From: Candidatus Latescibacterota bacterium
GTDB taxonomy: Bacteria > Latescibacterota > UBA2968
Assembly (NCBI GenBank): GCA_965204745.1
Contig: OZ242010.1
Location: 1,248,001-1,312,000 of the forward strand
DNA length: 64,000 nt
Direction of reading: 5' to 3'
Shown: positions 15,183-60,442 of the stretch, piece by piece
Numbering within the stretch: position 1 is the stretch's first letter
How the letters are laid out: every line of letters starts with the position of its first letter
Position numbers and translations under genes: made by a program
The notes under the pieces: model-generated
Seen by the model: only the letters and a program-made list of their open reading frames with translations
Told to the model about the DNA's origin: nothing
Database searches by the model: none

Positions 15183-15499
15183 GAAAAAAACCACCCGTGC
15201 GTGCCCCGCTCATCCACCCAACCGCCCGTGCGTGCCCATCCCGCCCTCACCCCGCCGTGTGCGATCCCACACCACCGCCCCTTGATGGCGTTGCGCGAGG
15301 GGACCTATCCCCCGGCCCCGTTATTCGCTTCGCTCATTGTAGGCTACGCCTGTGCCTACAAGGAAAGGGGAGTAAAGTTCCTTTGATGGCTTATATCAAT
15401 GGCTACTCTGATGGCGTTGTGCGAGGGCATCAAGCGATTAAAAATCCCTCATCATTCCCCTCGCAAAACCACTCACAGTTCCCCCTTGTATCTTGGGAT

Positions 15500-15745
15500 C
15501 AAGGGTTAATTAGGTGTTGCGCCCTCGTATCGAGATAAGCCATCTTGATGCTCGGCTCGGGGAAGGCCGGTTCCCCCTTGCAGGCAATGACCTTGTCAGG
15601 AAGAGAGGCCCCCCGACCGCCGAGTCTATGCCGAAGAGTATCTAAATCCATCGAGGCTGCATATACAAGGTCGGTAGGCTTGGCGCGAATGGTCGGGACG
15701 CGACCCCGAGCGCACCTCAGATCCCTTACAGACCCCTCATCACAG
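15500..15745 (+). ncRNA. IS110 bridge RNA, copy A (boundaries approximate)
   Basis: Target guides GTTCCCCCT (15570-15578) and AGGAAG (15598-15603); donor guides AGAGTATCT (15635-15643) and ATACAAG (15663-15669). Confidence 0.8.
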
Positions 15746-15891
15746 GAGGCCCCCATGTCGAACTCTCAACCCGCTTTTGCCGGCATTGATGTCAGTGCCC
15801 GCACGTTGTCCGTTGCCCTGTCCAGACCTGGACAAGATGTCCTGCAAGCGACCTTTGACAATGATCCCCGGGCGCATAAGCGGTTGCTGAA

Positions 15892-15919
15892 GTAGGGGCG
15901 AATAATTATTCTCCCCTAC
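15892..15919. repeat. GTAG-family REP palindrome inserted in the IS110-A ORF
   Basis: GTAGGGGCGAATAATTATTCTCCCCTAC replaces the GTGGC seen in intact copies; related palindrome at 6957-6978. Confidence 0.8.
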
Positions 15920-16445
15920 TCACCAAGGGCGGACACATGGTCATGGTCTCTGTCTGCCTCGAAGCGACCGGGCTTTACAGCTTGGGGGTGGCCTTGGCCT
16001 TGCATCGGCATCGCCACACGCAGGTCATGGTCGTCAATCCCAAGGCGATGAGCAAGTACGCCCAAGCCTGCATGCAACGGGCGAAGACGGATGCGAAGGA
16101 TGCGTTGTTGATCCTCGATCCGGGACTGCCAATCCACAAAGACGCATCTCGAAAACCGGGAATAAGTATCTCCGCCATGCCCTCTATATGCCTGCCTGGG
16201 TGGCCAGCAGACACGAAGTCCATGTCAAAGCCTTCTATGACCAACTCATTGCCAGAGGCAAGAAACCTTTGCAGGCTATCGTTGCGGTGATGCGAAAGTT
16301 GCTCCATCCGATCTGGGGCATGTTGCGGCATGACCAAGATTTTGAGGGCGAAACACCTAATTAACCCTTACTTCCACCAAGATACAAGGGGCTCCAGTAG
16401 GGTAGGTCCCAATTCCCCATAGGGACAGGCCCCTGTGCCTGTCCC

Positions 16446-16490
16446 AAAAAGTAAAGCCCGAGTTCACTGTGAACCCGGGCTTTACTTTTT
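16446..16490. terminator. Bidirectional terminator-like hairpin downstream of the adhesin
   Basis: aaaaagtaaagcccgagttcac/gtgaacccgggctttacttttt; inverted twin near 46225-46268. Confidence 0.75.
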
Positions 16491-16716
16491 TTGCATCGTA
16501 TGCGTGCCCTTTCGCACCCCTTCGTCGTTCAGCCTGTCGAGCCAAAGCCGGCGGCGAAGATGAGGAAAAGGGATTCGATCTCTTGCTTTCGCATATAGAC
16601 CTGTGCGGCGACGGTCGTATCGCCGAAGGTCGGTATCGGATTGGTCGTCACCGCAATGGCGAACATCAGGGTGTTCTCATCGCCATCTTCATCTGTGGCG
16701 GTCAGGGAACAGGCTT

Positions 16717-21348: not shown

Positions 21349-22301
21349 CCTTTCGGGGAGGGGTACACTATATTGATCAGCCTAACAGACTGTTTTGCAA
21401 TAAAATAGAACCGCACTCCAAGACGGGAATGGGCGATATGAACGCCAGTTTTCGCGGTGGGAACATAGGGCCAAATGAGGTTCAAACAGCGGCTGAAAAT
21501 GGCGGTAATCATCTGAAATCTCCTTTGCAAAAGCTGTCGCGTAAACGCAGGCACGGCTTTTCCTTCGCGCTCAAAATCGAAATAGCGAATGGGTAAAAAA
21601 TTAAAAATTACGCTATTATTTTTCAAGTGGTAAAATGACGATAGGATCGGTGGTCAGTCAAGCGATAAGGAGCGGAGGGACCTGTCCCTACGACGGATGG
21701 CGAGAGGTTGTGCGATTAGCCACAAAAGGCACAAAAACACAAAAGGGCGATGGGTCTTCCGAGGGATTGTGCGAGGGGGACCTACCCCCTGGCCCCCTTC
21801 CTAAGAGGAAGGGGGAACTGTGAGCGGTTTTGCGAGGGGAATGGCGTAGAGGTTTTTTCGGGTTCATAGCGTGATCTATTCGCGCAAAGCCATCAGAATA
21901 GCCAGGGATACAACCCTTCAAGAAAGCCACGCGCTCCCCCTTTCCTCGTAGGCACAGGCGTAGCCTACAATGAGCGAAGCGAATAACGGGGGCCGGGGGG
22001 ATAGGTCTATGGCGGTAGGGCGGGGGGTGGTAATCCGCGCAATCCCCTAATCCGTTTAATCCGCGATTCAGACACGGGTGGCAGGGCGGCGAGGACGGCC
22101 ACGCTCATCGCTCTAAAACAAAATGTCAACAGAACCTCGTTCATGTCTTTGGGCGATTGACCGCGGCTTGCTTCTTACTCGCTTTCTACTCTTAATTTGA
22201 CAACTGACAACTCGGGCGATGGCGGGGTTGTCTCACCTCTCCCGTCTTACGTCTCACCGAAGGGGGTTGGGCGGTGCGGACTAACAACTGACAACTGATT
22301 C

Positions 22302-24080: not shown

Positions 24081-24111
24081 TGCAAATCTCTCCTGAGTAA
24101 AAGTGAAAAAC

Positions 24112-24151
24112 AAAAAAGCCCGCCATCGCATTATGGTATGCAATGACGGGC
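24112..24151 (-). terminator. Attenuator terminator of the ilvB leader
   Basis: Minus-strand gcccgtcattgcat...atgcgatggcgggc followed by TTTTTT. Confidence 0.8.
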
Positions 24152-24174
24152 GAGATGTTTCCGTGTTGCGACCA

Positions 24175-24264
24175 TCAATCCCCCCATTGCATGGGTACGC
24201 GTACGATGACGCGGCCTACGACGACCGTTGTGCGAAGAAGGGAGGTGGTGATGAAGTGCGTCAT
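24175..24264 (-). CDS. ilvB leader peptide ([29 protein letters not shown])
   Basis: 29-aa ORF with clustered Leu/Val/Ile codons, between a promoter and the terminator. Confidence 0.8.
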
Positions 24265-24307
24265 GATTCGCGCTCTGCTGTTCGTGGTTCGCGTTTAATG
24301 AGGCGAA

Positions 24308-24336
24308 AAAATACAAGCTTCGGCGCGTTCTGTCAA
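24308..24336 (-). promoter_or_regulatory. Sigma-70 promoter for the ilvB leader
   Basis: Minus-strand TTGACA-17 bp-TATTTT. Confidence 0.6.
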
Positions 24337-24353
24337 GGAAATTGGGGGGATGC

Positions 24354-25115: not shown

Positions 25116-25305
25116 GGCGATTTCCCTCGTTGTTCTGTGCGGCCTCACACCACCGCCCGTGCGTGCCCTGCCCCGACGTTCGATCCTCGTAGGGACAGGC
25201 CCCTGTGCCTATCTTTATATTCAGCGGTCAGCGGTTATCGGTCAAAGGTTAGGGGGCGGTATTACGCCATCAGGATACGCGGAAAAAAATCGTTGTCAAG
25301 AACTA

Positions 25306-25838: not shown

Positions 25839-25959
25839 TAACTTGGCGCATTGAAAATACGATCAGAACGGCGTTGTTTTAAGTCATTGCTTTTGCACAG
25901 AAGATAATCTATTTTGGCTCGGTATTCGAGACATTCCACACTTTTCGCGGGAGGGAGAT

Positions 25960-30515: not shown

Positions 30516-31010
30516 GAGGGGACCTATCCCCCGGCCCCTTTCCTACGAGGAAAGGGGAGTAAAGCTCCTTTGATGGCTTATCGCTCTGGTTGCTCTGATG
30601 GCGCTGACCGAGGGGACCTATCCCCCGGCCCCTTTCCTGCGAGGAAAGGGGAGTAAAGCTCCTTTGATGGCTTATCGCTCTAGTTGCTCTGATGACGCTG
30701 ACCGAGGGGACCTATCCCCCGGCCCCTTTCCTGCGAGGAAAGGGGAGTAAAGCTCCTTTGATGGCTTATCGCTCTAGTTGTTCTGATGGCGTTTTGCGAG
30801 GGCATAAAGCGATTAAAAATCCCTCATCAATACCCTCGCAAAACCGCTCACCGTTCCCCCCTTCCTCTAAGGAAGGGGGGTTAGGGGGGTAGGTCCCGAT
30901 AAGGAGCGAGTGTTTCAGTTTCTCAAACCGAGAGCATATTCGGCGATAGGCTTGATTTTCTCGATAAACCGCTCAAGCCAGTTGCTTTGCTCGTAAATGT
31001 CAACACAACC
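30516..31010. mobile_element. Partial MITE copy 3 with three ~94-bp tandem units
   Basis: gaggggacctatcccccggcccctttcct...gaggaaaggggagtaaagctcctttgatgg x3; ends in TIR AAATGTCAACACAACC then TA. Confidence 0.7.
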
Positions 31011-41153: not shown

Positions 41154-41847
41154 CCACCCAACCCCAAACCCCGTAGGGGCAGGCCCGTGCCTGTCTTCGA
41201 TATCCATCTCAGAAAACGAACGCCCCGGCGATTTTGTGTCGTCGGGGCGTTTTATTTTTTTAACAATGCGAATTGAGAGTAGAAAGCGAGTAAGAAGCAA
41301 GCCACAACCCATCATCCAAAGACATGAACGAGGTTCTGTTGACATTTTGTTTTTGAGCGATGAGCGTGCCCGTCCTCGCCACCCTGCCGCCCGTGTCTGA
41401 ATCGCGGATTAAACGGATTAGGGGATTACGCGGATTACCCCACACCGCCCTACCGCCATAGCCCTATCCCCCCGGCCCCCTTTCCTACAAGGAAAGGGGG
41501 AGCGCATGGCTTTCTTAAAGGTTTGCATCCAGGGCTGTTTTGATGGCTTTGGGCGAATGGATCACGCCATGAAAATCCAAACCCCGCTCGCGCAATCCCT
41601 CGGAAAACCACTCACAGTTCCCCCTTCCTCGCAGGAAGGGGGTTAGGGGGTAGGTCCCCCTCGCACAACCTCTCGCCATTCCCCCTTCCTCGCAGGCACA
41701 GGCGTAGCCTACAACGAAGCGTAGCGAGTAACGGGGCCAGGGGGTAGGTCCCCCTCGCACACCCTGTCGCCATCCGTCGTAGGGGACGGGACCCTGTGCC
41801 TGTCCTTATCGCTTGACTGACCACCGATCCTATCGTCATTTTACCAC

Positions 41848-48913: not shown

Positions 48914-49049
48914 GTCAGTTGTCAGTCCTGTGTGCCCATCCCCGCCCTGCCTCTCCGTGTGCGTTTTGCCTTGCATCTGTGTTCTTAGGCGAAGCGGACG
49001 TTTTCGCGTCTTTTCGCTTTTCCCGTCTTCCCTCTTGTATCTTGGAAGT

Positions 49050-49290
49050 AAGGTTTAATTAGGTGTTGCGCCCTCGCATCGAGACAAGCCATCTTGATGC
49101 CCGGCTCGGGGAAGGCCGGTCCCTCTCGAAGGCGATGACCTTGTAGGTGAGATAGGCCCCCCGACCGCCGGGTCTATGCCGAAGCGTATCTAAGTCCCTT
49201 GAGGCTGCATATACAAGACCGGTAGACTTGGCGTCAATGGTCGGGATCGAACTCGAGCGCACACCAGACCCTTACAAACCCCTCATCACA
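49050..49290 (+). ncRNA. IS110 bridge RNA, copy B (boundaries approximate)
   Basis: Target guides TCCCTCT (49120-49126) and AGGTGAGA (49145-49152) match its own flanks; donor guides at 49184-49191 and 49211-49218. Confidence 0.85.
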
Positions 49291-49300
49291 GGAGGCCCCC

Positions 49301-50308
49301 ATGTCGAAATCTCAACCCGCTTTTGCCGGCATTGATGTCCGTGCCCGCACGTTGTCCGTTGCCCTGTCCAGACCTGGACAAGTTGTCATGCAAGCGACCT
49401 TTGCCAATGATCCCCAAGCCCATAAGCGGTTGCTGAAGTGGCTCACCAAGGGCGGGCACATGGTCTCTGTCTGCCTTGAAGCGACCGGGCTTTACAGCTT
49501 GGGGGTGGCCTTGGCCTTGCATCGGCATCGCCACACAAAGGTCATGGTCGTCAATCCCAAAGCGATGAGCAAGTACGGTCAAGCCTGCATGCAACGAGCC
49601 AAGACGGATGCGAAGGATGCGTTGTTGATCATGGATTATGCCGAGCGCATGCCGTTTGTGCCTTGGCAAGCGCCGAGTGAGCAACGGCTCCAACTGCAAG
49701 CCCTCACCAGACGTATTGACCAACTCAAGCAGGAGATCATCCGCGAACAGAGCCGCAACCACGCGCAAAGCTACCACATCCGGAGCACACGGCGCATCGC
49801 ACGCGATATTCAGGTGAATATCCGACACCTCAAACGCCGGATTGCCTACTTGGAAAGCCAAGCCCTCGATCTCGTTTTGCACGATGAGACCCTCAAGCGC
49901 GCCTACCAACGCCTCTGCTCGACGCCTGGCATCGCACAAACGAGTGCCTTGCGGCTCTTGGCCGAGTTGACCCTTTTGCCAGAGGAGATGCAACCGCCCC
50001 AGTGGGTCGCACATGCAGGCCTGGATCCCAAACCCAAACAATCCGGAACCGCCAACCCACAAAGACGCATCTCGAAAACCGGGAATAAGTACCTCCGCCA
50101 TGCCCTCTATATGCCTGCCTGGGTGGCCAGCAGACACGAAGTCCATGTCAAAGCCTTCTATGACCAACTCATTGCCAGAGGCAAGAAACCTTTGCAGGCT
50201 ATCGTTGCGGTGATGCGAAAGTTGCTCCATTCAATCTGGGGCATGTTGCGGCATGACCAAGATTTTAAGGGCGAAAAATTCTATCGAATCACCCCGAAAA
50301 CCCCTTGA
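49301..50308 (+). CDS. IS110-family DEDD recombinase/transposase
   Basis: AGIDV, CLEATG, KTDAKDA (DEDD); GLDPKPKQSG...ISKTGNKYLRHALY; AVMRKLL. Confidence 0.95.
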   Translation: MSKSQPAFAGIDVRARTLSVALSRPGQVVMQATFANDPQAHKRLLKWLTKGGHMVSVCLEATGLYSLGVALALHRHRHTKVMVVNPKAMSKYGQACMQRAKTDAKDALLIMDYAERMPFVPWQAPSEQRLQLQALTRRIDQLKQEIIREQSRNHAQSYHIRSTRRIARDIQVNIRHLKRRIAYLESQALDLVLHDETLKRAYQRLCSTPGIAQTSALRLLAELTLLPEEMQPPQWVAHAGLDPKPKQSGTANPQRRISKTGNKYLRHALYMPAWVASRHEVHVKAFYDQLIARGKKPLQAIVAVMRKLLHSIWGMLRHDQDFKGEKFYRITPKTP

Positions 50309-50491
50309 CCTTTTAAGAGAGTATCTCACCTCTTCCCGCCTCTTGCCTCTCCCCATCATACTCAGAGTTTTGGGTTTCTTCAAGGATTTTTTGTACCGAA
50401 CGCGGCGCGGGTTTTGGGTTGCGATACGTTTTGGGTCGCGTTATTGTTTTGGCGGATGCTGTCTCCAATCTGATACAATGGGAGGATCGCT

Positions 50492-52954
50492 GTGGATGCG
50501 TCAATTACCGTCGGTTATGGGGATCGGGTGGGGATGGATGAGCGGCATGTTTATCCGCGCTATATGGGGTTTCGGCCAGCAGATGGTCAGGTGTGCGAGG
50601 TGAATCCGCCCAGGTTGAGTTGGCCGTTTGATCCGAATATCATCCCCCAAGGGCCTCTGCCGGCAGGGCGGAGGTTTAGGTTGCTGATTGGGCGCACGCC
50701 CGAGTTGAAAGATCCGGTGGTGGATGTGAAGCGGACGCCGTACAATTTTTACAACGCGCTGCCGGTCTTGAGGCCCGGGCGCGAGTGGTTCTGGCGAGTG
50801 ATTTACGATGTGGAAACGCCCGATGAGCAGGCGAGTGCGGTGAGGCGTTTTGAACTTTCGGCCGATGCGGTGGCATGGGATCGCACGGCGATAGAACGAG
50901 CGGTGAGCGGGCATCCGAGGATCATTTTCACGCCTGAGAATCTGCACGCGCTGCGCGAGTTTCAAGACGGGGATGTGGAATGTGCGGAAATTGCGAGGCA
51001 GGCGATTCGCCTTGCGGACGAGACCCTGAAGGCAGACTGGTTTGTGGATTTTCCAGCGTCTGATGCGGCTGTGGGGCCTTTTGCATTCCCGTATATCTAT
51101 CCCGAATACGCGCAGTTGCTCGCGAATATGGCTTTTGCGTATATGCTCACGGGCGATGAAAAGTACCTGGGGATGAAAAGCCGGTTGTTGACGATGGCGC
51201 GTTATGAACCCGGGGGATATTCCTCGCCCGAGGGCTTTGGGAAAGGCGAAAAGTTTTGTACGAAGATCACGGAGTTTATGGGCGTGTGCTTTGACTGGCT
51301 ATACCCCATTCTCTCTGACGATGAGCGCGAGACGATCATCCACGCGCTGGATTGGCGCATCGCGCATACCATGAATGAATATTCATGGTTGCACAAAGGC
51401 GAAGTTCGCGCAAAGGGCATTGCCGTGGCGCCGACTTCTCATGCGTGGGAAAATATCACTTGGACCCTGTCAGGCGCGCTGGCGGTTGCAGAGCATTCGC
51501 GTGTTGCGCGGCAATTTTTGGAACTCGGCCTGCACTATGTCACGGGCGTGGGGACTGGGTTTGGGCCGGACGAGGGATGGAACGAAGGCGTGTCTTACAG
51601 CACTTGGAAGTTCTATTCTTTGGTCGCCACGTCGCTCTACGTCGCGATGACCCTTCCGGACCTGCACTTGGAACGCAATCCGTTTTACCGGGGGATGGGG
51701 ACGTTTCTCTTGAATCTGGCACCCGTGGGGGTCGTGCGGCCCGCGTGGGGCGATATTGCGTTTCAGTATCGCTATCACGAGCGCGGGCAACACGCTTATC
51801 GCAGAAAGCTGGCCTATTTGACCGGCGATGGGCGCGTGTTGACCGCGTGGAAGGAGTGGAAACGGGTGTTGGCAACGGGCGAGGTGCAACCCTTGAACTT
51901 GGGAGAACCGAATATCGCCGAGGTCACGGATTACCCCCGCCCGTGGATCGAATACGCGCTGAAACACTTTTTTCCCGAGCCAAAGGCGGCATCCAAACCG
52001 CCGCGCACGCACTTCTCGCCGGTTGCCGGCTGGGCGATGGGCCATTCAGAGCCGCCGGAGAAGCTCGAGTCGTTCCGCCGGGGCGTGGGGTTCGTGTTCA
52101 CTTGCCGACCGCGTGGGGGATATAGCCACAGCCACAGGAGCAATGGCGGGTTCGAGTTATTTGCTTATGGAAAGACCATTGCCACGGGCGGGGGCAAGCG
52201 GAGCAACCGGGATCGCGTGTCGCGGTCGAGCCAGTCGCACAATGTGGTGTTGATCGATGGCGAAGGACAGCGCGAGGTGCCCGGATCGGCTGACTTGCCA
52301 AACGCGGGGCGCGTTGTGGGATGGAAAGAGACGCGGGAAATGGTGTACGTGTGCGGCGATGTGCGAAATGCCTATCTCGAGCAGGCCAATCTCGCGCGGT
52401 TTTACCGGCATTTCTCGTTCGTCAGGGATCGCTACTTTGTCGTGTTCGACGATCTCGCGCTCGCCTCGGGGACCGCGGTGTTTTCGTGGTTGTATCACGT
52501 TCAACCAGATGTGCCTGTGGCGATGTCGGAAGCCGGTTTCGCGTATGCTGTTGGGGATGTGCGGGTGCAGGTGCATCACTTCGGGGAGACCGGGCCGCTG
52601 AAGGTGGAGAATATGCGCGGCGAAAAAGCGTATCGCAATCCCATTACCGGTGCGGATTTGTACGGTGAAATTGAAGCCAAAGTGAAACATTCCAAAACAG
52701 AGGAAATTTGGAATGGCACGCCGCAGGTCCACAACAATCTCTGGTTATCGACCAAACCGCGCCGCGAAGCCAAATTTCTCGCGGTGATCGTGCCGCATCG
52801 GGAAGGCGAGCCCACGCCGCGCGTGCGAAAAATCGCGCCAGATGTGATCGGCGTGTCTCTGCGAGCGGGGATGGAAGATGTGATCGCCTTTGGAAAACCG
52901 CGGCAAGGCGCGTTTGCGAGCATTGATTACAAGGCGATGCGCGTGGCGGAGTGA
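50492..52954 (+). CDS. Heparinase II/III-like polysaccharide lyase (DUF4962-type N-terminus)
   Basis: NPPRLSWP, HPRIIFT, GWNEGVSY, SHSHRSNGGF, SHNVVLIDGEGQ. Confidence 0.75.
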   Translation: MDASITVGYGDRVGMDERHVYPRYMGFRPADGQVCEVNPPRLSWPFDPNIIPQGPLPAGRRFRLLIGRTPELKDPVVDVKRTPYNFYNALPVLRPGREWFWRVIYDVETPDEQASAVRRFELSADAVAWDRTAIERAVSGHPRIIFTPENLHALREFQDGDVECAEIARQAIRLADETLKADWFVDFPASDAAVGPFAFPYIYPEYAQLLANMAFAYMLTGDEKYLGMKSRLLTMARYEPGGYSSPEGFGKGEKFCTKITEFMGVCFDWLYPILSDDERETIIHALDWRIAHTMNEYSWLHKGEVRAKGIAVAPTSHAWENITWTLSGALAVAEHSRVARQFLELGLHYVTGVGTGFGPDEGWNEGVSYSTWKFYSLVATSLYVAMTLPDLHLERNPFYRGMGTFLLNLAPVGVVRPAWGDIAFQYRYHERGQHAYRRKLAYLTGDGRVLTAWKEWKRVLATGEVQPLNLGEPNIAEVTDYPRPWIEYALKHFFPEPKAASKPPRTHFSPVAGWAMGHSEPPEKLESFRRGVGFVFTCRPRGGYSHSHRSNGGFELFAYGKTIATGGGKRSNRDRVSRSSQSHNVVLIDGEGQREVPGSADLPNAGRVVGWKETREMVYVCGDVRNAYLEQANLARFYRHFSFVRDRYFVVFDDLALASGTAVFSWLYHVQPDVPVAMSEAGFAYAVGDVRVQVHHFGETGPLKVENMRGEKAYRNPITGADLYGEIEAKVKHSKTEEIWNGTPQVHNNLWLSTKPRREAKFLAVIVPHREGEPTPRVRKIAPDVIGVSLRAGMEDVIAFGKPRQGAFASIDYKAMRVAE

Positions 52955-53766
52955 TCGCGATTGAGGATATTTGCAATGCTGTCGAGGTAGGCTTTGAGAG
53001 ATAATCCGTGGCTTTGTGCCAAAATCTCTAAAGTGCGAACCCGCGTGCGTTCGCCCTTTTCAATTCTCCGTACCTGACGCTCTGAAAGCCCCGCAATATC
53101 GGTTTGTCTGAGGTTGTATTTTTTTCGCAATGCGGCAACGGCCTCTCCAAACCGGCTATCGTATATCAGTCTTTCTCGATCCTTTTTTTGACGCCACGCA
53201 ACATCCTTGACGTAGCGAATCGCATCCAGATCAAGATGCACATCTGCCTCGGGCCAAGCGATATAACTGCCCTCGCTGGAAATAAAAAATAAAGCGCGTT
53301 GCGCGATTGGAACGCGCTTTAGTGCGGGCAGTTCTTCAAAGTCAATTCTAAACAACGCATGGTTACAGGACATAACAAAGAGCGCGTTATCAATAACCTG
53401 TGCCGTGGCAATCAGTTGATCTGGACATCCCAGGCTCCAAGCCATTAACACGCGCTTTGGTACGTCTTTGTTAGAATGGACGAGAATTTGGCGGTTCATT
53501 TTCATTTTTGCCTCGTAAAGCATCTGGGGCAGAAACTGGACATTGTCATTTTCGCGAATAAAAAGGGTCCGAAGGCGATGGTGCTGATTTGCAACGCGTA
53601 CAAATTTAGCTACAGCGGTAAGGCCGGAAATTGAAGAGAGCACAAAAATATCCCGATATTTCATTTTTGCCCAATCCGGTTCCCTAAAAACATCGAAGGA
53701 ATGTGGAATGATGTCATCGCTATATGGGTCTTGCGCCCAAACGGCTATTCCCGCAGTCTTTGGCAT
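52927..53766 (-). CDS. DUF2442-like plus C-terminal XRE HTH protein (putative antitoxin)
   Basis: ISSEGSYIAWPEADVHLD; LRKKYNLRQTDIAGLSERQVRRIEKG; GAGGAG RBS. Confidence 0.65.
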   Translation of the reverse strand: MPKTAGIAVWAQDPYSDDIIPHSFDVFREPDWAKMKYRDIFVLSSISGLTAVAKFVRVANQHHRLRTLFIRENDNVQFLPQMLYEAKMKMNRQILVHSNKDVPKRVLMAWSLGCPDQLIATAQVIDNALFVMSCNHALFRIDFEELPALKRVPIAQRALFFISSEGSYIAWPEADVHLDLDAIRYVKDVAWRQKKDRERLIYDSRFGEAVAALRKKYNLRQTDIAGLSERQVRRIEKGERTRVRTLEILAQSHGLSLKAYLDSIANILNRDHSATRIAL

Positions 53767-53768
53767 GT

Positions 53769-54047
53769 TTAGCTCCTCGTCTTTACTTTGTTTTCCCACT
53801 CGACATAAAGTGCATCTCGGTGTTGAAGCACCCGATTTAAGATATCCCTTTGCTCTTTGCCCGAAGGCCCTTCTCCGCTACGGGGAAATTTCACATTGAA
53901 GACCAACTCGCGTTCTGTACAGAGACCGAAAAAAACGCGAATCTCCCATTTATCCGGTTTGCGTGCATGAAAATGAGGCGGTTCGTGATCCGAGGAATGG
54001 AACCACAGGTCTAGACCCGCCAAGCGAAAGCAATCCAATTTTCCCAA
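53769..54047 (-). CDS. DUF4160-family small protein
   Basis: FHSSDHEPPHFHA...EWE motif; TTG start after AGGAG. Confidence 0.75.
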   Translation of the reverse strand: MGKLDCFRLAGLDLWFHSSDHEPPHFHARKPDKWEIRVFFGLCTERELVFNVKFPRSGEGPSGKEQRDILNRVLQHRDALYVEWENKVKTRS

Positions 54048-54553
54048 AATATCGCTCCTATTGGTTTGGAGAAATGTATTCAAAACCGGCCAATAAATCA
54101 ATACCGTAAATTCAAAAAATGTCCGATGCAACGCGGGTTGTGGCGAAATGTCACAACCCCGTTTTTTTGTGAAAATATTTATCGTTTTGAAACCTTTAAG
54201 TGCAAGGCGTGTATCTAAGACGTAACAGAGGATGGGTGGTACGCGTCGATTCGGAAGATGGCTGGCATAACGGACATGTTGCGATAGCCCAACTGTGAAA
54301 CTTTGTAACGACACCATGCGTTTAAGGGATGTGTCCACTCGTTGCTGATTCTGAACGGGGTTCAATCAGGGAAATCCTTGTCAGCCGCGTTCTGGGAGGG
54401 AAGATCATGGTCGCAAAATTGAAAATGCCGACAACTTGCGCCAAACCGGGCGAGGGATTTCGCTGTGCGGATGGGCATGACCGCGAGCGCGGCGAGAAAA
54501 CCATGGCCTCGAATGACGCTGTCGGAAAACGAAAAGAATGGGTGGGAGATGCG

Positions 54554-55414
54554 ATGGCAGACATGAAAACAGAGACGCGGGCCGCGGGCGATGCTTCGGT
54601 TCAGAGCTATCTGAGGGAGCTCCGCAAGTATCCGCCATTGAGCCGAGAAGAGGAACGGCAAACCCTGTGCTTGGCGAAAAAAGGCGACCGCACCGCGGCA
54701 GACAAGATCATCACGTCAAACTTGCGTTTTGTGGTCAGCGTCGCACTCGAATATCAGGGCCGGGGCGTGCCCCTCGCCGATTTGATCGCCGAGGGCAATG
54801 TCGGGCTGATGGAAGCCCTCAAGCGGTTTGATGAAAAGCGCGGGTTCAAGTTCATCAGCTATGCGGTTTGGTGGATTCGGCAGGGCATTCTCAACGCGCT
54901 CAAGCGCACATCAACCGTGGCGATGCCCGCAAATCGCCAGGAAGATATGGATCGCATGGCGCGTCGCTATGGGCAGATGAGCCAAGAGTTGGGCCGCGTG
55001 CCCACATTGGACGAAGTTGCCAGCGATATGCAGATCAGCCTCGAGCGCGCAGAGCGGGCCTTGCGCTGTGTGCGCCCAGACCTGTCGCTCTCTGCGCCCA
55101 TAGACGCGGAGGGCGAGCAGTCGCTCATGAATCTGCTCGAGGCCGATGCAGAGGATCCCGATCAGTTGGTCATAGCACGCGATCAGGCCGAGTTGGTGTC
55201 TCGATCTCTCACCGAGCTCGATCAGCGCGAGGCCGATATCATTCGCGCCTATTTTGGGCTTGAGGGGCATGAGCGCGAGAACCTGAGCGAAATCGGTCGC
55301 GCTTTGGGCCTGACCCGAGAACGCATTCGCCAGATTCGCAACCGCGCGCTGTTCAAGCTCCAGCGATATTTTCGGCGCGAAGTGCCGGGGAGCAAGGGGC
55401 AAGATTTGGTCTGA
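54554..55414 (+). CDS. Alternative sigma-70 factor (RpoD/RpoS-like, no region 1.1)
   Basis: SNLRFVVSVA, DLIAEGNVGL, FKFISYAVWWIRQ, LTRERIRQI. Confidence 0.9.
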   Translation: MADMKTETRAAGDASVQSYLRELRKYPPLSREEERQTLCLAKKGDRTAADKIITSNLRFVVSVALEYQGRGVPLADLIAEGNVGLMEALKRFDEKRGFKFISYAVWWIRQGILNALKRTSTVAMPANRQEDMDRMARRYGQMSQELGRVPTLDEVASDMQISLERAERALRCVRPDLSLSAPIDAEGEQSLMNLLEADAEDPDQLVIARDQAELVSRSLTELDQREADIIRAYFGLEGHERENLSEIGRALGLTRERIRQIRNRALFKLQRYFRREVPGSKGQDLV

Positions 55415-55548
55415 TTAGAAGAAAAAGGCGGGTGAGAGGTAAGAGGCAAGACGGGAGAAGCCACCCAACAACCCCGAAACCCGATGCACTTCGTTGGGTC
55501 GCTTGAGAGATGGGTAGTTGTACCCCGATTCGCATATATGGAGGCACG

Positions 55549-56586
55549 ATGAACAAACGCGATTTTCTGAAAACAGCCGGCATTGCCGCCGCGGCCACAG
55601 CGGTCAACGCGCCTGCGGTGATCGCGCAATCCAAGTCCCCGATCCGCTGGCGCCTGCAAACGTATGCCGGCGCCTCGCTGGCAGAGCATGTGGTCAAGCC
55701 GGCGATTGACTCGTTCAACGAGATCGCCAATGGCGACATGACGATTGAGCTGTTCACTGCGGATCAACTCGTGCCCACGCCCGACCTGTTCAACGCGCTA
55801 CAAAAGGGCATACTCGACGCGGTGCAAAGCGACGACGATTCCATGGCGTCGCCCGCGGATGTGGCGGTGTTCGGCGGGTACTTCCCGTTTGCCACGCGCT
55901 ACAGCTTGGATGTGCCGGTGCTGTTCCACCAGTACGGTTTGAAGGATATTTGGGAAGAAGCCTACGCCGAGATCGACGGCGTGACGTGGTTGAGCGCGGG
56001 GTCGTGGGATCCATGCCATTTCAACACGGTCGATCCCATCCGCAGTTTGGACGATCTCAAGGGCAAGCGCGTGTTCACCTTTCCAACCGCGGGCAAATTC
56101 CTGTCCCGTTTCGGCATCGTGCCCGTCACCCTGCCGTGGGACGAGGTCAAAGACGCGGTGCGAACCGGCGCGTTGGACGGCTTGGCTTGGTCCGGCATCA
56201 CCGAGGCGTACACCGTCGGCTGGGCAGACGTGACCCGGTACTTTTTGACCAACAACATCTCCGGCGCGTGGTGCGGGTCGTTTTTCGCCAACGCGGATTC
56301 GTGGCACGCGCTACCGGCGCACTTGCGGGAATTGTTCCGCGTTTGCATGGACAGTTCTCATTATTATCGCCAACACTGGTACTGGGGCGGCGAGGCCCGC
56401 CAGCGCGTTGCGGGCACAAAGCTCGAACTCACGTCCATCCCGGACGCTGAGTGGCGAGAAGTGGAAGCCGAAGCCCTCAAGTTCTGGGATGAGATCGCCC
56501 AAACCAGCCCCCGCGCCGCACGGGTCATCGACATCTTCAAACAATACAACGCGACCATGACAAAAGCCGGCCCTCCCTATCGCTAA
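55549..56586 (+). CDS. TRAP substrate-binding protein (DctP/TakP type) with Tat-like signal
   Basis: MNKRDFLK signal; IRWRLQTY; PIRSLDDLKGKR. Confidence 0.85.
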   Translation: MNKRDFLKTAGIAAAATAVNAPAVIAQSKSPIRWRLQTYAGASLAEHVVKPAIDSFNEIANGDMTIELFTADQLVPTPDLFNALQKGILDAVQSDDDSMASPADVAVFGGYFPFATRYSLDVPVLFHQYGLKDIWEEAYAEIDGVTWLSAGSWDPCHFNTVDPIRSLDDLKGKRVFTFPTAGKFLSRFGIVPVTLPWDEVKDAVRTGALDGLAWSGITEAYTVGWADVTRYFLTNNISGAWCGSFFANADSWHALPAHLRELFRVCMDSSHYYRQHWYWGGEARQRVAGTKLELTSIPDAEWREVEAEALKFWDEIAQTSPRAARVIDIFKQYNATMTKAGPPYR

Positions 56587-56610
56587 ACCCAACGGCTTAT
56601 AGGGGGTGTT

Positions 56611-58116
56611 ATGGCAAGAAAAACGACGAATGGGACAGCGATAATGGCGAAGGCGAATTGGGCGAATCGCACGATCTTTGAGGGCGACAACCTCGACATT
56701 CTGCGGGGCATGAACGCCGCGAGTGTGGATTTGGTGTATCTCGATCCGCCGTTCAACTCGAATCGCAATTACGCTGCGCCGATTGGTTCGGCAGCGGCCG
56801 GTGCGGCTTTCAAAGACGCTTGGACCTTGAGTGATGTTGACGAGGCTTGGCACGGGGAAATTGCCGAGCGCGATGAGCGGTTGTACAAGGTGATTGACGC
56901 GGCCGGGGCGGTGCATGGTAAGTCGATGAAGTCCTATTTGATTTTTATGGCTGTTCGGATTTTGGAATTGCACAGCGTATTGAAGCCGACGGGGAGTCTC
57001 TGGTTGCATTGCGATCCGACGGCGAGTCATTATCTCAAACTCGCGATGGACAGTATTTTGGGAAAAGACAATTTTCGGAATGAGGTTATTTGGAAGCGCA
57101 CGTCGTCCAAGACCGCGAGCCGTAAATTGCCCGCGGTGCATGATGTGTTGTTGTGGTATGCAGGGGGCGATGAGCATACCTATCACAAGGGCTATGGGCC
57201 GCATGATCCCGGATACGTCGAGAAGTTTTATCGCTATGAAGACGAGCATGGGCGGTATCGGACGGGTGATTTGACAGCGGCGGGCGTGAGCAATGGCGAT
57301 TCGGGTCAGCCGTGGCGTGGGATCGACCCTTCGGTAATCGGGCGACATTGGGGCGCGCCGGGGACTTTTCCCGAACATGTGGCAAAACCGGGGGATTGGA
57401 AAAATATGGATACGCGGGCCAAACTCGACTATCTCGACGCCAACGGCCTCGTCCATTGGCCCCAAAAGCAGGGCGGTGTCCCGGCCTTCAAGCGGTATTT
57501 GAGCACGTCTAAGGGGGCTATCCTGACGGACGTCCTGACGGACATTCCGCCTTTGTCTGCCCGATCCAAAGAGAAGACGGGCTATCCCACACAGAAACCG
57601 CTTGCGTTGCTGGAACGGGTTATCAAAGCGAGTAGCAATCCGGGGGATGTTGTATTGGACCCATTTTGCGGTTGCGCGACGACGTGTGTAGCTGCGGAGA
57701 TGTTGGGGCGCCAGTGGGTTGGGATAGACCTAAGCCCATTGGCTGGCAAAATTGTCGTTGAGCGATTGCAAAAGGTATCCGATGAAGATGGACTGCTGAA
57801 AGGCGGCAAACTCCCGAAAGTGATCCACAGAACAGACCTTCCGCGCCGCACGGACATCGAGGAATTGCCCGATTACAGGACGCACAAGCATGTGTTGTAC
57901 GGCGAGCAAGCGGGGAATTGCAAGGGCTGTGGCGTTCACTTCCCATTTCAAAATATGACCGTTGACCACATCACGCCGCGTGCAAAAGGTGGAGGAGATC
58001 ACAAAGAGAATCTGCAACTGCTTTGCAACAGTTGCAACGCTCGCAAGGGAAGCGGCACTCAAGCCGAGTTGATCGCGCGCTTGCGCGAGGCGGGGATTTT
58101 GTATCGCACGGTTTAG
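56611..58116 (+). CDS. Beta-class N4/N6 DNA methyltransferase fused to a C-terminal HNH domain
   Basis: DPPF (motif IV), YPTQKP, DPFCGCAT (motif I); CKGC...VDHITP...NLQLLCNSCN. Confidence 0.9.
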   Translation: MARKTTNGTAIMAKANWANRTIFEGDNLDILRGMNAASVDLVYLDPPFNSNRNYAAPIGSAAAGAAFKDAWTLSDVDEAWHGEIAERDERLYKVIDAAGAVHGKSMKSYLIFMAVRILELHSVLKPTGSLWLHCDPTASHYLKLAMDSILGKDNFRNEVIWKRTSSKTASRKLPAVHDVLLWYAGGDEHTYHKGYGPHDPGYVEKFYRYEDEHGRYRTGDLTAAGVSNGDSGQPWRGIDPSVIGRHWGAPGTFPEHVAKPGDWKNMDTRAKLDYLDANGLVHWPQKQGGVPAFKRYLSTSKGAILTDVLTDIPPLSARSKEKTGYPTQKPLALLERVIKASSNPGDVVLDPFCGCATTCVAAEMLGRQWVGIDLSPLAGKIVVERLQKVSDEDGLLKGGKLPKVIHRTDLPRRTDIEELPDYRTHKHVLYGEQAGNCKGCGVHFPFQNMTVDHITPRAKGGGDHKENLQLLCNSCNARKGSGTQAELIARLREAGILYRTV

Positions 58117-58329
58117 GGGCAGGCTGTTGAAAAAAAGTGGTGATTGCTGACCGTCTTGACAATGGCGAGCAAATCCCGTCTCAACAAAAAAAAGAAAAAG
58201 CCCTCCTGTTTTTGCAGAAGGGCTTCAATTTTTTGAAGGAACGTTACCGAGACGAGGCGGTTTCTCGCCCGGCTGGAGTTGGTCGACCAGTTCCAAGCCG
58301 CATACGCGCTTCGCGACTCGAAATTGTGG

Positions 58330-58611
58330 TCATGGTAGATGCTCCAAAGATGAATGTTTGACGAGGGATTCGGCCATTGTCACCTCTCGAATGGCGTTCC
58401 AATTGATCACAGCAACCCACAGATTTTCTTCTTTTGAGTATTCAACCATGCCATCAACTTCCAAATCTTCGCTGTAAAGAACCAGCGATTGCCCTTGTCG
58501 TAAAGAGATTTTCTGGCATGCCAAGTCTTCCACAGTGCCAACGCAGTTCAAGCGCAACCTGCCTTGTGCATCTGCGTTGTGAAAATCGGCGAACACACTT
58601 GGTTTTTTCAT
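58330..58611 (-). CDS. Small hypothetical protein, putative immunity/antitoxin
   Basis: 93 aa; start overlaps the upstream stop (ATGA). Confidence 0.65.
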   Translation of the reverse strand: MKKPSVFADFHNADAQGRLRLNCVGTVEDLACQKISLRQGQSLVLYSEDLEVDGMVEYSKEENLWVAVINWNAIREVTMAESLVKHSSLEHLP

Positions 58612-58946
58612 TTTTTTGTCTCCCGTGCAGGATTTGAAATTGTTGGCGTAAAAAGTTGACTGGCTTGATCGGGCGTCAGTCCAGTCAACGTCGCATGGTA
58701 AGGGCTTCTGCCAGAAGTCCGTACCACATTCCCGCCAGCTTTTCGGATTTCACCAGCGGTTGTTACGCCAACTTGTCCATGCGGAATTGTCCTTGCCAGT
58801 TCAGAGACGGAAACATCTTCGCCACTTTCTACGGATACCCCAGTAACCCCACTTGGATGCGTTCCGCTTCCGCGGCGAATGTCTTCTGGGCGGTTTTGAC
58901 CACCGCGAACAACAAAGGCATCATCAGAGATTTTTGCATATTCCAT
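58608..58946 (-). CDS. Small hypothetical protein resembling a polymorphic-toxin tip domain
   Basis: VVRGG...TGVSV...GVTTAGEIRKAGG...YHATL pattern; GAGGAG RBS; family assignment from recall only. Confidence 0.6.
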   Translation of the reverse strand: MEYAKISDDAFVVRGGQNRPEDIRRGSGTHPSGVTGVSVESGEDVSVSELARTIPHGQVGVTTAGEIRKAGGNVVRTSGRSPYHATLTGLTPDQASQLFTPTISNPARETKK

Positions 58947-59079
58947 TGCGCTTTGAAAAATATTACTCTCCTCGTCATTTCGGCGAAATCAAGTCCGTTC
59001 CCCAAGCTATCGGCAATTAAATTAGTGCAGACATTGCCTTGGGGCGGTGGGGCGGTCTCGCCTCTTGTATGTTGTCAGA

Positions 59080-59320
59080 AAGGGTTAATTTAGGTGTTGC
59101 GCCCTCGCATCGAGACACGCCATCTTGATGCCCTGCTCGGGGAAGGCCGGCGCCTCTTGAAGGCTATGACCTTGTAAGTAAGATAGGCCCCCCGACCGCC
59201 GAGTTGATACCGAAGAGTATCTAAGTCCATTGAGGCTGCATATACAAGACCGGTAGACTGGGCAAACAGTCGGGACGCGAACCCGAGCGCACACCAGACC
59301 CCTTCCCCACCCCTCATCAC
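59080..59320 (+). ncRNA. IS110 bridge RNA, copy C (boundaries approximate)
   Basis: Target guides CGCCTCT (59151-59157) and GTAAGA (59178-59183); donor guides at 59214-59222 and 59242-59249. Confidence 0.85.
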
Positions 59321-59331
59321 AGGAGGCCCCG

Positions 59332-60339
59332 ATGTCGAACACTCAACCCGCTTTTGCCGGCATTGATGTCCTTGCCCACACGTTGTCCGTTGCCCTGTCC
59401 AGACCCGGACAAGGGGGCATGCAAGCCACCTTTGACAACGCGCCTCGGGCGCACAAGCACCTGTTGAAGTGGCTCACCCAGGGCGGGCGCATGGTCTCGG
59501 TCTGTCTCGAAGCGACCAGGCGTTCTAGCTTGGGGGTGGCCTTGGCCTTGCATCAGCATCGCTGTACGCAGGTCATGGTCGTCAATCCCAAAGCGATGAG
59601 CAAGTACGCTCACGCCTGCATGCAACCGGCAAAGACGGATGCGAAGGATGCGTTGTTGATCCGCGATGATGCCGAGCGCATGCCCTTTGTGCCTTGGCAA
59701 GCGCCGAGCGAGCACCGGTGCCAACTGCAAGCCCTCACCAGACGCATTGACCAACTCAAGCAGGAGATCATCCGCGAACAGAGCCGCAGCCACGCGCAGA
59801 GCGACCCCATCCGGAGCACACGGCGCATCGCACGCGATATTCAGGTGAATATTCGACCCCTCAAACGCCGCATTGCCTACTTGGAAGACCAAGCCCTCAA
59901 ACTCGTTTTGCACGACGAGACTCAAAAGCGTGCCTACCAGCACCTCTGCTCGGTGCCCGGTATCGCCCAAACGAGTGCCTTGCGACGCTTGACCGAGCTG
60001 GCCTCCTTGCCAGACGCGATGGAACCGCCCCAATGGGTCGCTCATGCAGGCCTGGATCCCAAACCCAAACAATCCGGGATGACCAACCCGGAAAGACGCA
60101 TCTCGAAAACCGGGAATAAGTACCTCCGCCATGCCCGCTCTATGCCTGCCTGGATGGCCAGCAGACACGAAGTCCATGTCAAAGCCTTCTATGACCAACT
60201 CATTGCCCGCGGCAAGAAACCTTTGCAGGCTATCGTTGCGGTGATGCGAAAATTGCTCCATGCGATCTGGGGCATGTTGCGGCATGACCAAGATTTTGAG
60301 GGCGAGAAATTCTATCGAATCGCCCCGCAATCCCCTTGA
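59332..60339 (+). CDS. IS110-family recombinase, probably degenerate
   Basis: DEDD residues and QSG retained, but ATRRSS replaces ATGLYS and HARSM replaces HALYM. Confidence 0.88.
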   Translation: MSNTQPAFAGIDVLAHTLSVALSRPGQGGMQATFDNAPRAHKHLLKWLTQGGRMVSVCLEATRRSSLGVALALHQHRCTQVMVVNPKAMSKYAHACMQPAKTDAKDALLIRDDAERMPFVPWQAPSEHRCQLQALTRRIDQLKQEIIREQSRSHAQSDPIRSTRRIARDIQVNIRPLKRRIAYLEDQALKLVLHDETQKRAYQHLCSVPGIAQTSALRRLTELASLPDAMEPPQWVAHAGLDPKPKQSGMTNPERRISKTGNKYLRHARSMPAWMASRHEVHVKAFYDQLIARGKKPLQAIVAVMRKLLHAIWGMLRHDQDFEGEKFYRIAPQSP

Positions 60340-60442
60340 CCTTTAAGAGAGTATCTTACCTCTTGCCTCTTACTTGGGATAGGGCTTGCGGTAGGGTTGT
60401 GGGGGTAATCCGCGCAATCCCCTAATCCGTTTAATCCGCGAT

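What the first reader, a model, noticed from the sequence alone, without database searches (positions are those of the whole stretch)
15478..60360. Three IS110 copies whose bridge-RNA target guides differ, each matching its own insertion site
Seen in sequence: all three 5' non-coding regions share the scaffold ggccgg-[left guide]-aggc..gacctt-[right guide]-aggcc, with variable guides. Copy B: left guide TCCCTCT equals its left flank tccctCT; right guide AGGTGAGA is the reverse complement of tCTcacct, its right flank. Copy C: CGCCTCT equals cgcctCT; GTAAGA is the reverse complement of tCTtac. Copy A: GTTCCCCCT equals its left flank; AGGAAG predicts CTTCCT, which is how the uninterrupted repeat continues at 41617-41629 and 30853-30865 (copy A's own right flank is lost). 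Established: this matches the IS621-type bridge-RNA mechanism with a CT core. Inference: one recombinase lineage has been naturally reprogrammed to at least three target sequences in one genome.
Basis: partly seen in the sequence, partly recalled or inferred. Interest (0 to 1): 0.92.

Follow-up and report, generated by a model that had tools for sequence, protein, structure and literature searches.

The report
IS110 copies with self-matching bridge-RNA guides
Three related jumping genes in this window each carry a small guide-RNA region whose variable letters spell out the exact DNA site where that copy sits, a clear natural example of an already known RNA-guided insertion mechanism being retargeted within one genome.

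Summary
The window holds three IS110-family elements. A (15485-16388) is decayed; B (49034-50326) and C (59064-60356) have intact 335-aa DEDD/Tnp recombinase genes. Their 5' non-coding ends fold into two internal loops like the IS621 bridge RNA. In the first loop, the left guide repeats the left flank plus the CT core, and the right guide is the reverse complement of the CT core plus the right flank. The match is 12/12 for B and 11/12 for C. A matches 9/9 on the left, and its right guide fits uninterrupted paralogous repeats. The second loop matches the element's own ends.

The genome has 52 full-length copies and about 15 fragments, in at least five guide classes, and each class sits in its own kind of site. 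Own-guide assignment beats all 5039 other class permutations. Only 0.39% of 2069 comparable heptamer-repeat sites match B's guide perfectly. Target choice follows the guide rather than protein distance.

Exceptions are one mosaic copy, two copies with an unexpected right flank and one decayed copy. The mechanism is inferred by homology, not shown. Natural guide-target concordance is already published, so this is a new member of a known kind.

The parts
15478..15486 (+). Copy A left target half-site GTTCCCC plus core CT (15485-15486). It is one arm of a REP-like hairpin repeat.
   Evidence: The same 9 nt are repeated as the guide at 15570-15578.
15487..15754 (+). Copy A left non-coding end (bridge-RNA region). 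Left target guide at 15570-15578, right target guide CAGGAAGA at 15597-15604.
15755..16353 (+). Copy A recombinase gene remnant. It has a ~27-nt palindromic insert near 15894-15920 and a 404-bp internal deletion (query 604-1007 missing).
   Evidence: (HSPs 1-603 and 1008-1243)
16344..16388 (-). Inverted left-end fragment of a second A-type copy, ending in the core (AG on + strand, 16387-16388). It is joined to copy A at a GAGGGCGAAA microhomology. The flank beyond it is the other arm of the hairpin repeat.
   Evidence: (HSP query 1-42 reversed)
30853..30865 (+). Uninterrupted paralogous A-type repeat, with one extra C.
41617..41629 (+). Uninterrupted paralogous A-type target GTTCCCCCT|TCCT inside the hairpin CCCCCTTCCT-CGCA-AGGAAGGGGG.
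49029..49035 (+). Copy B left target TCCCT plus core CT, in a heptamer-repeat array.
49036..49300 (+). Copy B left non-coding end encoding the predicted bridge RNA. -10-like TATCTT 49038-49043. Left target guide 49120-49126 (+C at 49127). Right target guide 49145-49152. Left donor guide GTATCT 49186-49191. Right donor guide ATACAAG 49211-49217.
49301..50308 (+). Copy B recombinase, 335 aa, DEDD_Tnp_IS110 + Transposase_20.
   Evidence: 2.8e-23, 1.3e-19; ISCro4 2.5e-38, IS621 1e-35; motifs
50309..50331 (+). Copy B short right end (-35-like TTGACC starts at 50305, inside the ORF end), core CT 50325-50326, right target CACCT 50327-50331.
59059..59065 (+). Copy C left target CGCCT plus core CT, inside a dispersed composite repeat.
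59066..59331 (+). Copy C left non-coding end. Left target guide 59151-59157, right target guide 59176-59183, left donor guide 59217-59222, right donor guide 59242-59248.
59332..60339 (+). Copy C recombinase, 335 aa, intact frame. It differs at 38-39 residues from other C-class copies, and parts of the element are mosaic with M/B-like tracts.
60340..60361 (+). Copy C right end, core CT 60355-60356, right target TACCT 60357-60361.

Best explanation
These are IS110-family (IS621-type) insertion sequences. The roughly 265-nt left end encodes a bridge RNA with two internal loops.

[quoted passage not shown] In the donor-binding loop, GTATCT and ATACAAG pair with the element's own right and left ends.

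The DEDD/Ser recombinase bound to this RNA would join an excised circular copy to a matching site and leave CT at both junctions. The circle junction rebuilds a promoter, TTGACC-17/18-TAT[C/G]TT.

Point changes in the two guide segments have redirected sister lineages to different sites in this genome:
- M: CCCCT-CT-TACCT in heptamer arrays.
- B: TCCCT-CT-CACCT.
- C: CGCCT-CT-TACTT in a composite repeat.
- A: TTCCCC-CT-TCCT in a REP-like hairpin.

Shown here: the sequence anatomy, the guide-flank concordance and its statistics, and the copy census. Inferred: that the RNA is made, that it guides insertion, and that the retargeting arose in this lineage.
For: Recombinase:
- Both Pfam domains are present in B and C.
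- The closest solved structures are the ISCro4 and IS621 transposases.
- The GIDV, LEAT, KTDAKDA and RISKTG motifs are kept in all classes.

RNA structure:
- The consensus fold of 18 left ends has 55 pairs with 96.1% of cells paired, against 30-48% when the partners are slid.
- 10 pairs show compensatory change, and 0 of 500 shuffles reach that.
- The variable segments lie in the first internal loop.

Guide versus flank:
- B matches 12/12 and C 11/12.
- 45 M copies score 12 (20 copies), 11 (18), 10 (5) and 9 (2).
- 17 of the 45 M right flanks read TGCCT, which a G:U wobble would allow.
- Over all 75 copies, the left half has 343 matches, 15 wobbles and 17 mismatches. The right half has 305, 20 and 32.
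- The class diagonal is the best of 5040 permutations.
- Congeneric genomes add independent classes: AGAAAAGA with flank CTtttct, and AGGGAGA with CTccc.

Target follows guide, not protein:
- M1 and M2 differ at 15 residues yet share guide and target.
- B differs from them at 11-12 residues and has a different guide and target.

Empty sites:
- About 20 unoccupied paralogous C-type sites read left flank-CT-right flank without a gap.
- TTCCCCCTTCCT, the A-type site, occurs 131 times.

Activity:
- There are 30 identical and 8 identical copies.
- 20 of the 25 perfect M sites are occupied.

Junction promoter: present in 14 of 15 distinct sequences.

Guide variability: guide columns vary more than the rest of the RNA, 18/21 against 53/141, p=3e-5.
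Against: - No RNA data exist: no listed sequencing run is RNA.
- There was no Rfam match at E<=1.
- The stems that flank the target loop never vary, so they give no covariation support. The structure was also derived from the same alignment on which it was counted.
- Copy 602780 has a C-like guide but B-type flanks (9/12).
- Two M copies have the right flank CTcccgt (9/12).
- The left flank of decayed copy 845540 does not match its guide.
- In the A class the fifth right-guide base does not match the usual repeat, which has C there in about 123 of 131 copies.
- In the second congeneric genome the fourth right position mismatches in 13 of 18 copies.
- B is a single copy, so there is no evidence that its variant guide has acted more than once.
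Confidence: 0.9

Rival explanations
1. The guide classes did not diverge inside this genome. Related IS lineages that already carried different guides were imported separately, and co-residence plus gene conversion makes them look like one clade.
For: - C differs from M/B by about 11-12% in DNA and about 50 residues.
- The elements are mosaic: copy C has M/B-like tracts and 602780 has a C-like 5' part. Concerted evolution is therefore at work.
- Only 3 of 40 other genomes searched hold the element, which suggests patchy, possibly horizontal, spread.
Against: - All 15 distinct full-length sequences of this genome form a clade with 100/100 support against the two congeneric sets.
- B is only 39 nt from M2.
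- No outside donor was found among the 41 genomes searched.
Confidence: 0.2
2. Target choice is set by the recombinase protein, which recognises the repeat DNA itself. The guide-like strings are coincidental, or are passengers copied from targets.
For: - The proteins of the classes do differ: B differs from M at 11-12 residues and C from M at about 50.
- No experiment here shows that RNA is involved.
Against: - M1 and M2 differ more in protein (15 residues) than B does from either, yet they share guide and target.
- The left guide has the sense of the top strand and the right guide is antisense. They sit in one predicted internal loop, exactly as in IS621 (PMC11208160 section 7).
- Homologues with solved structures use the RNA (PMC11208158 passages).
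Confidence: 0.03
3. The matches are chance agreements between pyrimidine-rich low-complexity strings.
For: Guides and flanks are all C/T-rich. Within the heptamer pool, 36-39% of sites match any one guide at 10/12 or better.
Against: - A perfect B match has P=0.0039, and a C match at 11/12 or better has P=0.055.
- 38 of 45 M copies score 11/12 or better, against 8.9% in the pool.
- The own-guide assignment is the best of 5040 permutations.
- The A class matches a quite different 9-mer.
Confidence: 0.01

Closest known systems
IS621 of Escherichia coli (IS110 family) with its bridge RNA (Durrant et al. 2024, PMC11208160; Hiraizumi et al. 2024, PMC11208158; PDB 8wt6)
   Same: - DEDD RuvC-like plus Tnp(Ser) recombinase; phmmer E=1e-35 to the 8wt6 chain.
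- Long left end and short right end, with a CT core.
- RNA with a target-binding and a donor-binding internal loop.
- The left guide has top-strand sense and the right guide is antisense, and both include the core.
- A promoter split across the circle junction.
- Repeats used as targets.
   Different: - Distant in sequence, with no Rfam hit for the RNA.
- The predicted RNA region is longer, roughly 215 nt from the presumed start to the end of the outer donor stem, against 177 nt.
- The targets are heptamer tandem arrays and a different hairpin repeat.
- Many copies (52) in several guide classes in one genome.
- Nothing was tested experimentally here.
ISCro4 transposase (PDB 9t56)
   Same: It is the best solved-structure match, E=2.5e-38 over residues 7-325. 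The GIDV, EAT, KTDA-DA and SK-G motifs align.
   Different: Only the depositor's molecule name was seen. Its RNA and target were not examined here.
[quoted passage not shown] 2024, PMC11187229, passages read)
   Same: Related elements whose guide segment differs and whose targets differ accordingly.
   Different: - Those two have transposases 72% identical, sit in different hosts and belong to the IS1111 group, with the non-coding region downstream.
- Here the copies are 88-97% identical in DNA, lie in one chromosome and differ by single-base guide changes.
REP-targeting IS110 members ISPpu9 / ISPpu10 of Pseudomonas putida (PMC12288879 and bioRxiv 10.64898/2026.03.19.712850, abstracts seen in search listings only)
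   Same: Multiple copies inserted at one position of a dispersed palindromic or intergenic repeat, as with the A and C classes here.
   Different: The abstracts seen describe one target per element. Here there are several guide classes.

Membership tests
IS110 family, IS110 group (IS621-type bridge recombinase system) | [quoted passage not shown] | tested here: met
   B 2.8e-23 and C 3.4e-17, both above the cut-off. The GIDV, LEAT and KTDAKDA motifs are kept in all classes. Assigning them to D11/E60/D102/D105 rests on the alignment and on PMC11208158.
IS110 family, IS110 group (IS621-type bridge recombinase system) | C-terminal Tnp domain (PF02371) with the conserved serine | tested here: met
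   1.3e-19 and 2.3e-15. RISKTG aligns with RMSKAG of ISCro4.
IS110 family, IS110 group (IS621-type bridge recombinase system) | Long non-coding left end upstream of the recombinase gene, short right end, no long terminal inverted repeats | tested here: met
   Copy B has a left end of 265 nt and a right end of 16 nt. The ends CTTGTATC... and ...GAGTATCT are not inverted repeats of each other beyond the short TAT/ATA.
IS110 family, IS110 group (IS621-type bridge recombinase system) | Same core dinucleotide at both junctions, and an empty site equal to left flank-core-right flank | tested here: met
   CT is present at both ends in 52 of 52 full-length copies. About 20 unoccupied paralogous C-type sites and the A-type repeats read straight through. 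No orthologous empty site was found.
IS110 family, IS110 group (IS621-type bridge recombinase system) | Left-end RNA with two internal loops (target-binding, then donor-binding) | tested here: inconclusive
   The structure is predicted only. It has 55 pairs, 96.1% paired, and 10 pairs with compensatory change. The four stems next to the loops hardly vary. There is no RNA evidence and no Rfam hit.
IS110 family, IS110 group (IS621-type bridge recombinase system) | Target-loop guides complementary to the target: left guide to the bottom strand, right guide to the top strand, both including the core | tested here: met
IS110 family, IS110 group (IS621-type bridge recombinase system) | Donor-loop guides complementary to the element's own ends | tested here: met
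   GTATCT equals the last 6 nt of the right end including the core. ATACAAG is the reverse complement of CTTGTAT at the left end. Both are invariant or nearly so across 18 aligned left ends.
IS110 family, IS110 group (IS621-type bridge recombinase system) | Sigma-70-like promoter rebuilt across the right-end/left-end circle junction | tested here: met
   In silico only. TTGACC-17/18-TAT[C/G]TT is found in 14 of 15 distinct sequences. Only 7 of 52 integrated copies have a -35-like hexamer (4/6 or better) in the flank, and no promoter-like site was found at the integrated left end of B.
IS110 family, IS110 group (IS621-type bridge recombinase system) | RNA-dependent recombination of donor and target | not testable with these tools
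   This needs a donor/target assay.

The most novel reading that the evidence does not exclude
The genome records an adaptive radiation of bridge-RNA guides inside one chromosome. The dominant class has filled 20 of its 25 perfect sites, so single-base guide variants that open unused sites (B, C, A, and the ACGGGAGA class) gain an advantage. Guide segments evolve faster than the rest of the RNA. Gene conversion between co-resident copies moves guides between backbones, as in mosaic copy 602780, whose flanks fit B's guide but whose guide is C-like. If this holds, the locus set is a natural experiment that gives in vivo rules for mismatch and G:U wobble tolerance at each guide position.
Probability: 0.35. 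Interest if true: 0.6.

Novelty: new member of a known kind. Interest (0 to 1): 0.5.

Why it matters
Bridge recombinases are being developed as programmable genome-writing tools. Most rules for guide design come from IS621 screens.

This genome offers 52 natural insertions by one recombinase lineage using at least five guides, with occupied and unoccupied sites countable in the same chromosome. It shows which guide positions tolerate mismatch: the two distal left positions and the second right position through G:U. It shows how far a perfect target can be saturated (20 of 25). It also shows that one or two base changes in the guides go with a change of site.

It further suggests a compact set of closely related recombinase/RNA pairs that could be tested for orthogonality. 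It does not reveal a new mechanism.

Tried and rejected
- **Rfam.** A scan of 48000-61000 at E<=1 gave no family. This says little, because the library may hold no bridge-RNA model.
- **The search for related loci.** The B protein against genome contigs gave only two distant loci (46-48% identity). They were not used.
- **RNA evidence.** No RNA holder is listed among the 6 runs, which come from 2 studies.
- **Read laying.** Four runs were laid, as contigs only.
  - The element is covered by many short repeat-collapsed contigs.
  - One low-depth joint (depth 2.3-10.4, side 22-62) skips the element but carries 9-30 extra heptamer letters. It is therefore not a clean empty site and may come from a related strain or another array. 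It was not used as evidence.
- **Orthologous empty site for B.**
  - The downstream gene is found at 79-80% identity in 3 of 21 other genomes searched.
  - In those the upstream intergenic DNA is unrelated and has no heptamer array, so no empty site could be reconstructed.
- **Promoter at the integrated left end of B.** None was found.
- **Idea that heptamer arrays supply a -35 box to integrated copies.** Only 7 of 52 copies have a 4/6 hexamer at the right spacing, so the idea was dropped.
- **Idea that the base after the core in the left guide (C in B, T in others) reads target position +1.** It agrees in B, M, C, A and one congeneric set. It disagrees in the ACGGGAGA copies and in the second congeneric set. 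It is left open.
- **Cyanobacterial origin, suspected from the heptamer repeats.** No PF00124 match in the genome.
- **Paper supplements.** They were closed. Supplementary Data 2 of PMC11208160 lists natural guide/target bins and may already include this element. I could not check that.
- **Claim 'not in print'.** Searches, and passages of four papers, showed no report of several guide classes of one IS110 lineage within one genome. This rests on those searches only.


Full report
**What is in the window**

A repeat search and ORF list and direct reading show three related elements.

- Copy B (49034-50326) and copy C (59064-60356) are each about 1293 nt.
  - Both begin CT|TGTATC and end GAGAGTAT|CT.
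  - Each carries an intact 335-aa ORF.
  - The ORFs match Pfam DEDD_Tnp_IS110 and Transposase_20 above the cut-offs.
  - The closest solved structures are the ISCro4 (E=2.5e-38) and IS621 (E=1e-35) transposases.
  - The motifs GIDV, LEAT, KTDAKDA and RISKTG are kept.
- Copy A (from 15485) is a wreck.
  - It has a ~27-nt palindromic insert and a 404-bp internal deletion.
  - From about 16344 it is joined to an inverted left-end fragment of a second copy, which ends at 16388.
  - The two outer flanks of this composite look like the two arms of one REP-like hairpin repeat...GTTCCCCCT|TCCT-CGCA-AGGA|AGGGGG....
  - The simplest reading is two opposed insertions into one hairpin, followed by a deletion between them. 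This explains why A's right flank is missing.

**The observation**

- B: left flank TCCCT-CT and guide TCCCTCT. The right guide AGGTGAGA is the reverse complement of T-CT-CACCT.
- C: left flank CGCCT-CT and guide CGCCTCT. The right guide AAGTAAGA predicts CT-TACTT and the flank is CT-TACCT, so there is one distal mismatch.
- A: GTTCCCCCT is both flank and guide. The right guide predicts CT-TCCTG.
  - The unbroken repeat at 41617-41629 reads GTTCCCCCTTCCT.
  - The repeat at 30853-30865 has one extra C.

A second pair of strings in each left end, GTATCT and ATACAAG, matches the element's own right and left ends. A donor-binding loop should do exactly that.

**RNA structure**

I aligned 18 left ends: 10 from this genome, 7 from two congeneric genomes and 1 from a genome of the same order.

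- The consensus fold has an outer stem, then a first stem-loop whose internal loop holds the two variable segments. A second, longer stem-loop follows, and its internal loop holds the two end-matching segments.
- Counted on the alignment, 96.1% of cells pair, against 30-48% when partners are slid.
- 10 of 55 pairs show compensatory change, and 0 of 500 shuffles reach this.
- Two caveats apply. The structure was derived from the same alignment. The short stems directly flanking the loops hardly vary.
- The single-sequence fold of B has z=-2.56.
- This layout is the one described for IS621: the left guide pairs with the bottom strand, the right guide with the top strand, and the core is included in both (PMC11208160, section 7, read).

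**Genome-wide test**

The whole genome (5.48 Mb, one contig) holds 52 full-length copies and about 15 fragments.

- Of 58 left ends long enough to show guides, 46 carry CCCCTCT/AGGTAAGA (class M).
- The other 12 fall into classes C (CGCCTCT or TGCCTCT / AAGTAAGA), B, A (three truncated copies) and a decayed class with the right guide ACGGGAGA.
- The 45 full-length M copies have left flank CCCCT-CT in 41 and TACCT-CT in 4.
- Their right flanks are TACCT in 24, TGCCT in 17 (a G:U wobble would allow this), CCCGT in 2, and two other sequences once each.
- Four of the five full-length C-class copies have the right flank TACTT exactly as predicted. The window's copy C is the exception, with TACCT.
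- Two congeneric genomes add independent classes: AGAAAAGA with flank CT-tttct, and AGGGAGA with CT-ccc.
- Over 7 classes and 75 copies with both flanks, assigning each guide to its own sites gives the highest score of all 5040 class permutations.
- Against a deliberately generous null, a random site among 2069 heptamer junctions of the same general form:
  - a perfect B match has P=0.0039;
  - a C match of 11/12 or better has P=0.055;
  - 38 of 45 M copies reach 11/12 or better, against 8.9% of the pool.

**Targets and empty sites**

- M and B sit in tandem arrays of a 7-bp unit.
- C sits at one position of a longer dispersed repeat. About 20 unoccupied copies of that repeat read left flank-CT-right flank without interruption.
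- A sits in the stem of a hairpin repeat. The 12-mer TTCCCCCTTCCT occurs 131 times.
- So the flanks are target DNA, not part of the elements, and insertion adds the element plus one CT.

**Guide or protein?**

M1 (30 identical copies) and M2 (8 identical copies) differ at 50 nt and 15 residues, yet share guide and target. B differs from them at only 39-55 nt and 11-12 residues, yet has a different guide and site. Target choice therefore follows the guide.

Guide columns are also more variable than the rest of the RNA region. The count is 18/21 against 53/141 (p=3e-5) for 17 sequences, and 11/21 against 42/141 (p=0.04) within this genome.

**Life cycle features**

- Joining the right and left ends in silico restores TTGACC-17/18-TAT[C/G]TT in 14 of 15 distinct sequences.
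- Integrated copies mostly lack a -35 box.
- This agrees with the promoter reconstitution described for IS110 elements (PMC11208160, section 5, read).
- Thirty identical copies point to recent activity and fit the copy-and-paste model proposed in a 2026 preprint (10.64898/2026.08.31.748434, abstract and outline seen).
- Twenty of the 25 perfect M sites are occupied. By contrast, 65 wobble sites (CCCCTCTTGCCT) remain free.

**Results against the reading**

- Copy 602780 carries a C-like guide but lies in a B-type site (9/12). It is mosaic, with a C-like 5' part on an M/B-like body, so post-insertion gene conversion is a possible cause. This is not shown.
- Two M copies have the right flank CT-cccgt (9/12).
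- The left flank of decayed copy 845540 does not fit its guide at all.
- In class A the fifth right-guide base does not fit the common repeat.
- In the second congeneric genome the fourth right position is mismatched in 13 of 18 copies.
- No RNA data exist for this organism among the runs listed.
- No orthologous empty site could be found.

**Origin of the classes**

A maximum-likelihood tree of full-length elements puts all 15 distinct sequences of this genome in one clade (100/100), apart from the two congeneric sets. The truncated A-class left ends also group away from the congeneric sets (weakly resolved). This favours diversification within this lineage. However, mosaicism shows that gene conversion could homogenise imported lineages, and only 41 genomes were searched.

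**Comparison with what is known**

The mechanism and its programmability were published in 2024. That work already binned natural IS110 elements by guide and found concordant target motifs with 0-2 mismatches (PMC11208160, section 7). The seekRNA paper describes a 'natural re-direction' between two IS1111-group relatives (PMC11187229, passages).

What is new here is the scale and closeness: several guide classes on 88-97% identical backbones in one chromosome, with countable free and filled sites. My searches found no description of such a case. Supplementary lists could not be opened.

**Verdict**

It is a new member of a known kind and a useful natural data set, not a new mechanism.

Noticed in passing
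window 16344-16412: Copy A ends in an inverted left-end fragment of a second A-type copy. Its outer flank (GGGCTCCAGTAGGGTAGGTCCC) resembles the other arm of the same hairpin repeat. This suggests two opposed insertions into one palindrome, followed by a deletion at a GAGGGCGAAA microhomology.
   Followed up: partly
window 15894-15920; genome 407565, 1600905, 3450890, 5088681, 5323385: A ~27-nt palindromic mini-insert (core like GGGGC.ATAATTAT.GCCCC flanked by TA(G)/(C)TA) interrupts copy A. Related palindromes lie at another position in other decayed copies of this IS. Only 8 loose matches exist genome-wide.
   Followed up: partly
genome-wide (G000): About 2018 junctions of a 7-bp tandem repeat ([CT]NCCTCT[CT]NC[CGT]T) are scattered through the genome. 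20 of the 25 sites that perfectly match the dominant guide are occupied, while 65 G:U-wobble sites remain free.
   Followed up: partly
G000:C1:602780-604074 (L034): A mosaic copy has a target loop like class C, but its flanks (TCCCT-CT / CT-CACCT) are exactly the B-type target. It may be a second B-type insertion whose 5' part was later converted.
   Followed up: partly
G000:C1:1927368 and 5150716; 845540 and 2972659: Two M copies have the right flank CT-cccgt, which their guide does not predict. Two decayed copies carry the right guide ACGGGAGA, which predicts exactly CT-CCCGT. Recombination between classes could link the two facts.
   Followed up: no
G000:C1:1121591-1124182 (L027): An M2 and an M1 copy lie head to tail, separated only by TACCT. 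This is an insertion next to an existing copy and suggests there is no target immunity.
   Followed up: no
alignment A1 columns 207-208: The two bases after the right donor guide are AC in classes whose target has T before the core (M, B, C). They are GT in classes whose target has C there (A, A2, 845540 and one congeneric set). Exceptions are copy 1433016 and the second congeneric set. This resembles the handshake-guide covariation reported for IS621 (PMC11208158 passages).
   Followed up: partly
L006, L010, L014 (G036, same order): In a 73%-identical relative the left guide ends in AT, not CT. Two of three left junctions read ...AT|TGTATC, while the right junction reads GAGAGT-AT-CTAACGT. 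The core seems to have shifted by two bases, from CT to AT.
   Followed up: partly
Read laying loose ends at window 49120 and 49158 (run X2): Contigs from another run carry an A-type target loop with the right guide GAGGAAGA. Its fifth base would match the common hairpin repeat (CT-TCCTC), unlike the three decayed A copies of this genome.
   Followed up: no
G000:C1:123488, 950644, 2089468, 4730100: Solo left-end fragments of 42-72 nt occur with no guide region or gene. Their origin was not examined.
   Followed up: no
window 59332-60339: Copy C's recombinase differs at 38-39 residues from other C-class copies. Changes next to conserved motifs include LEATGRYS to LEATRRSS and HALYMPAW to HARSMPAW. 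Its DNA carries M/B-like tracts at about 620-800 and 1100-1293. It may no longer be active.
   Followed up: partly
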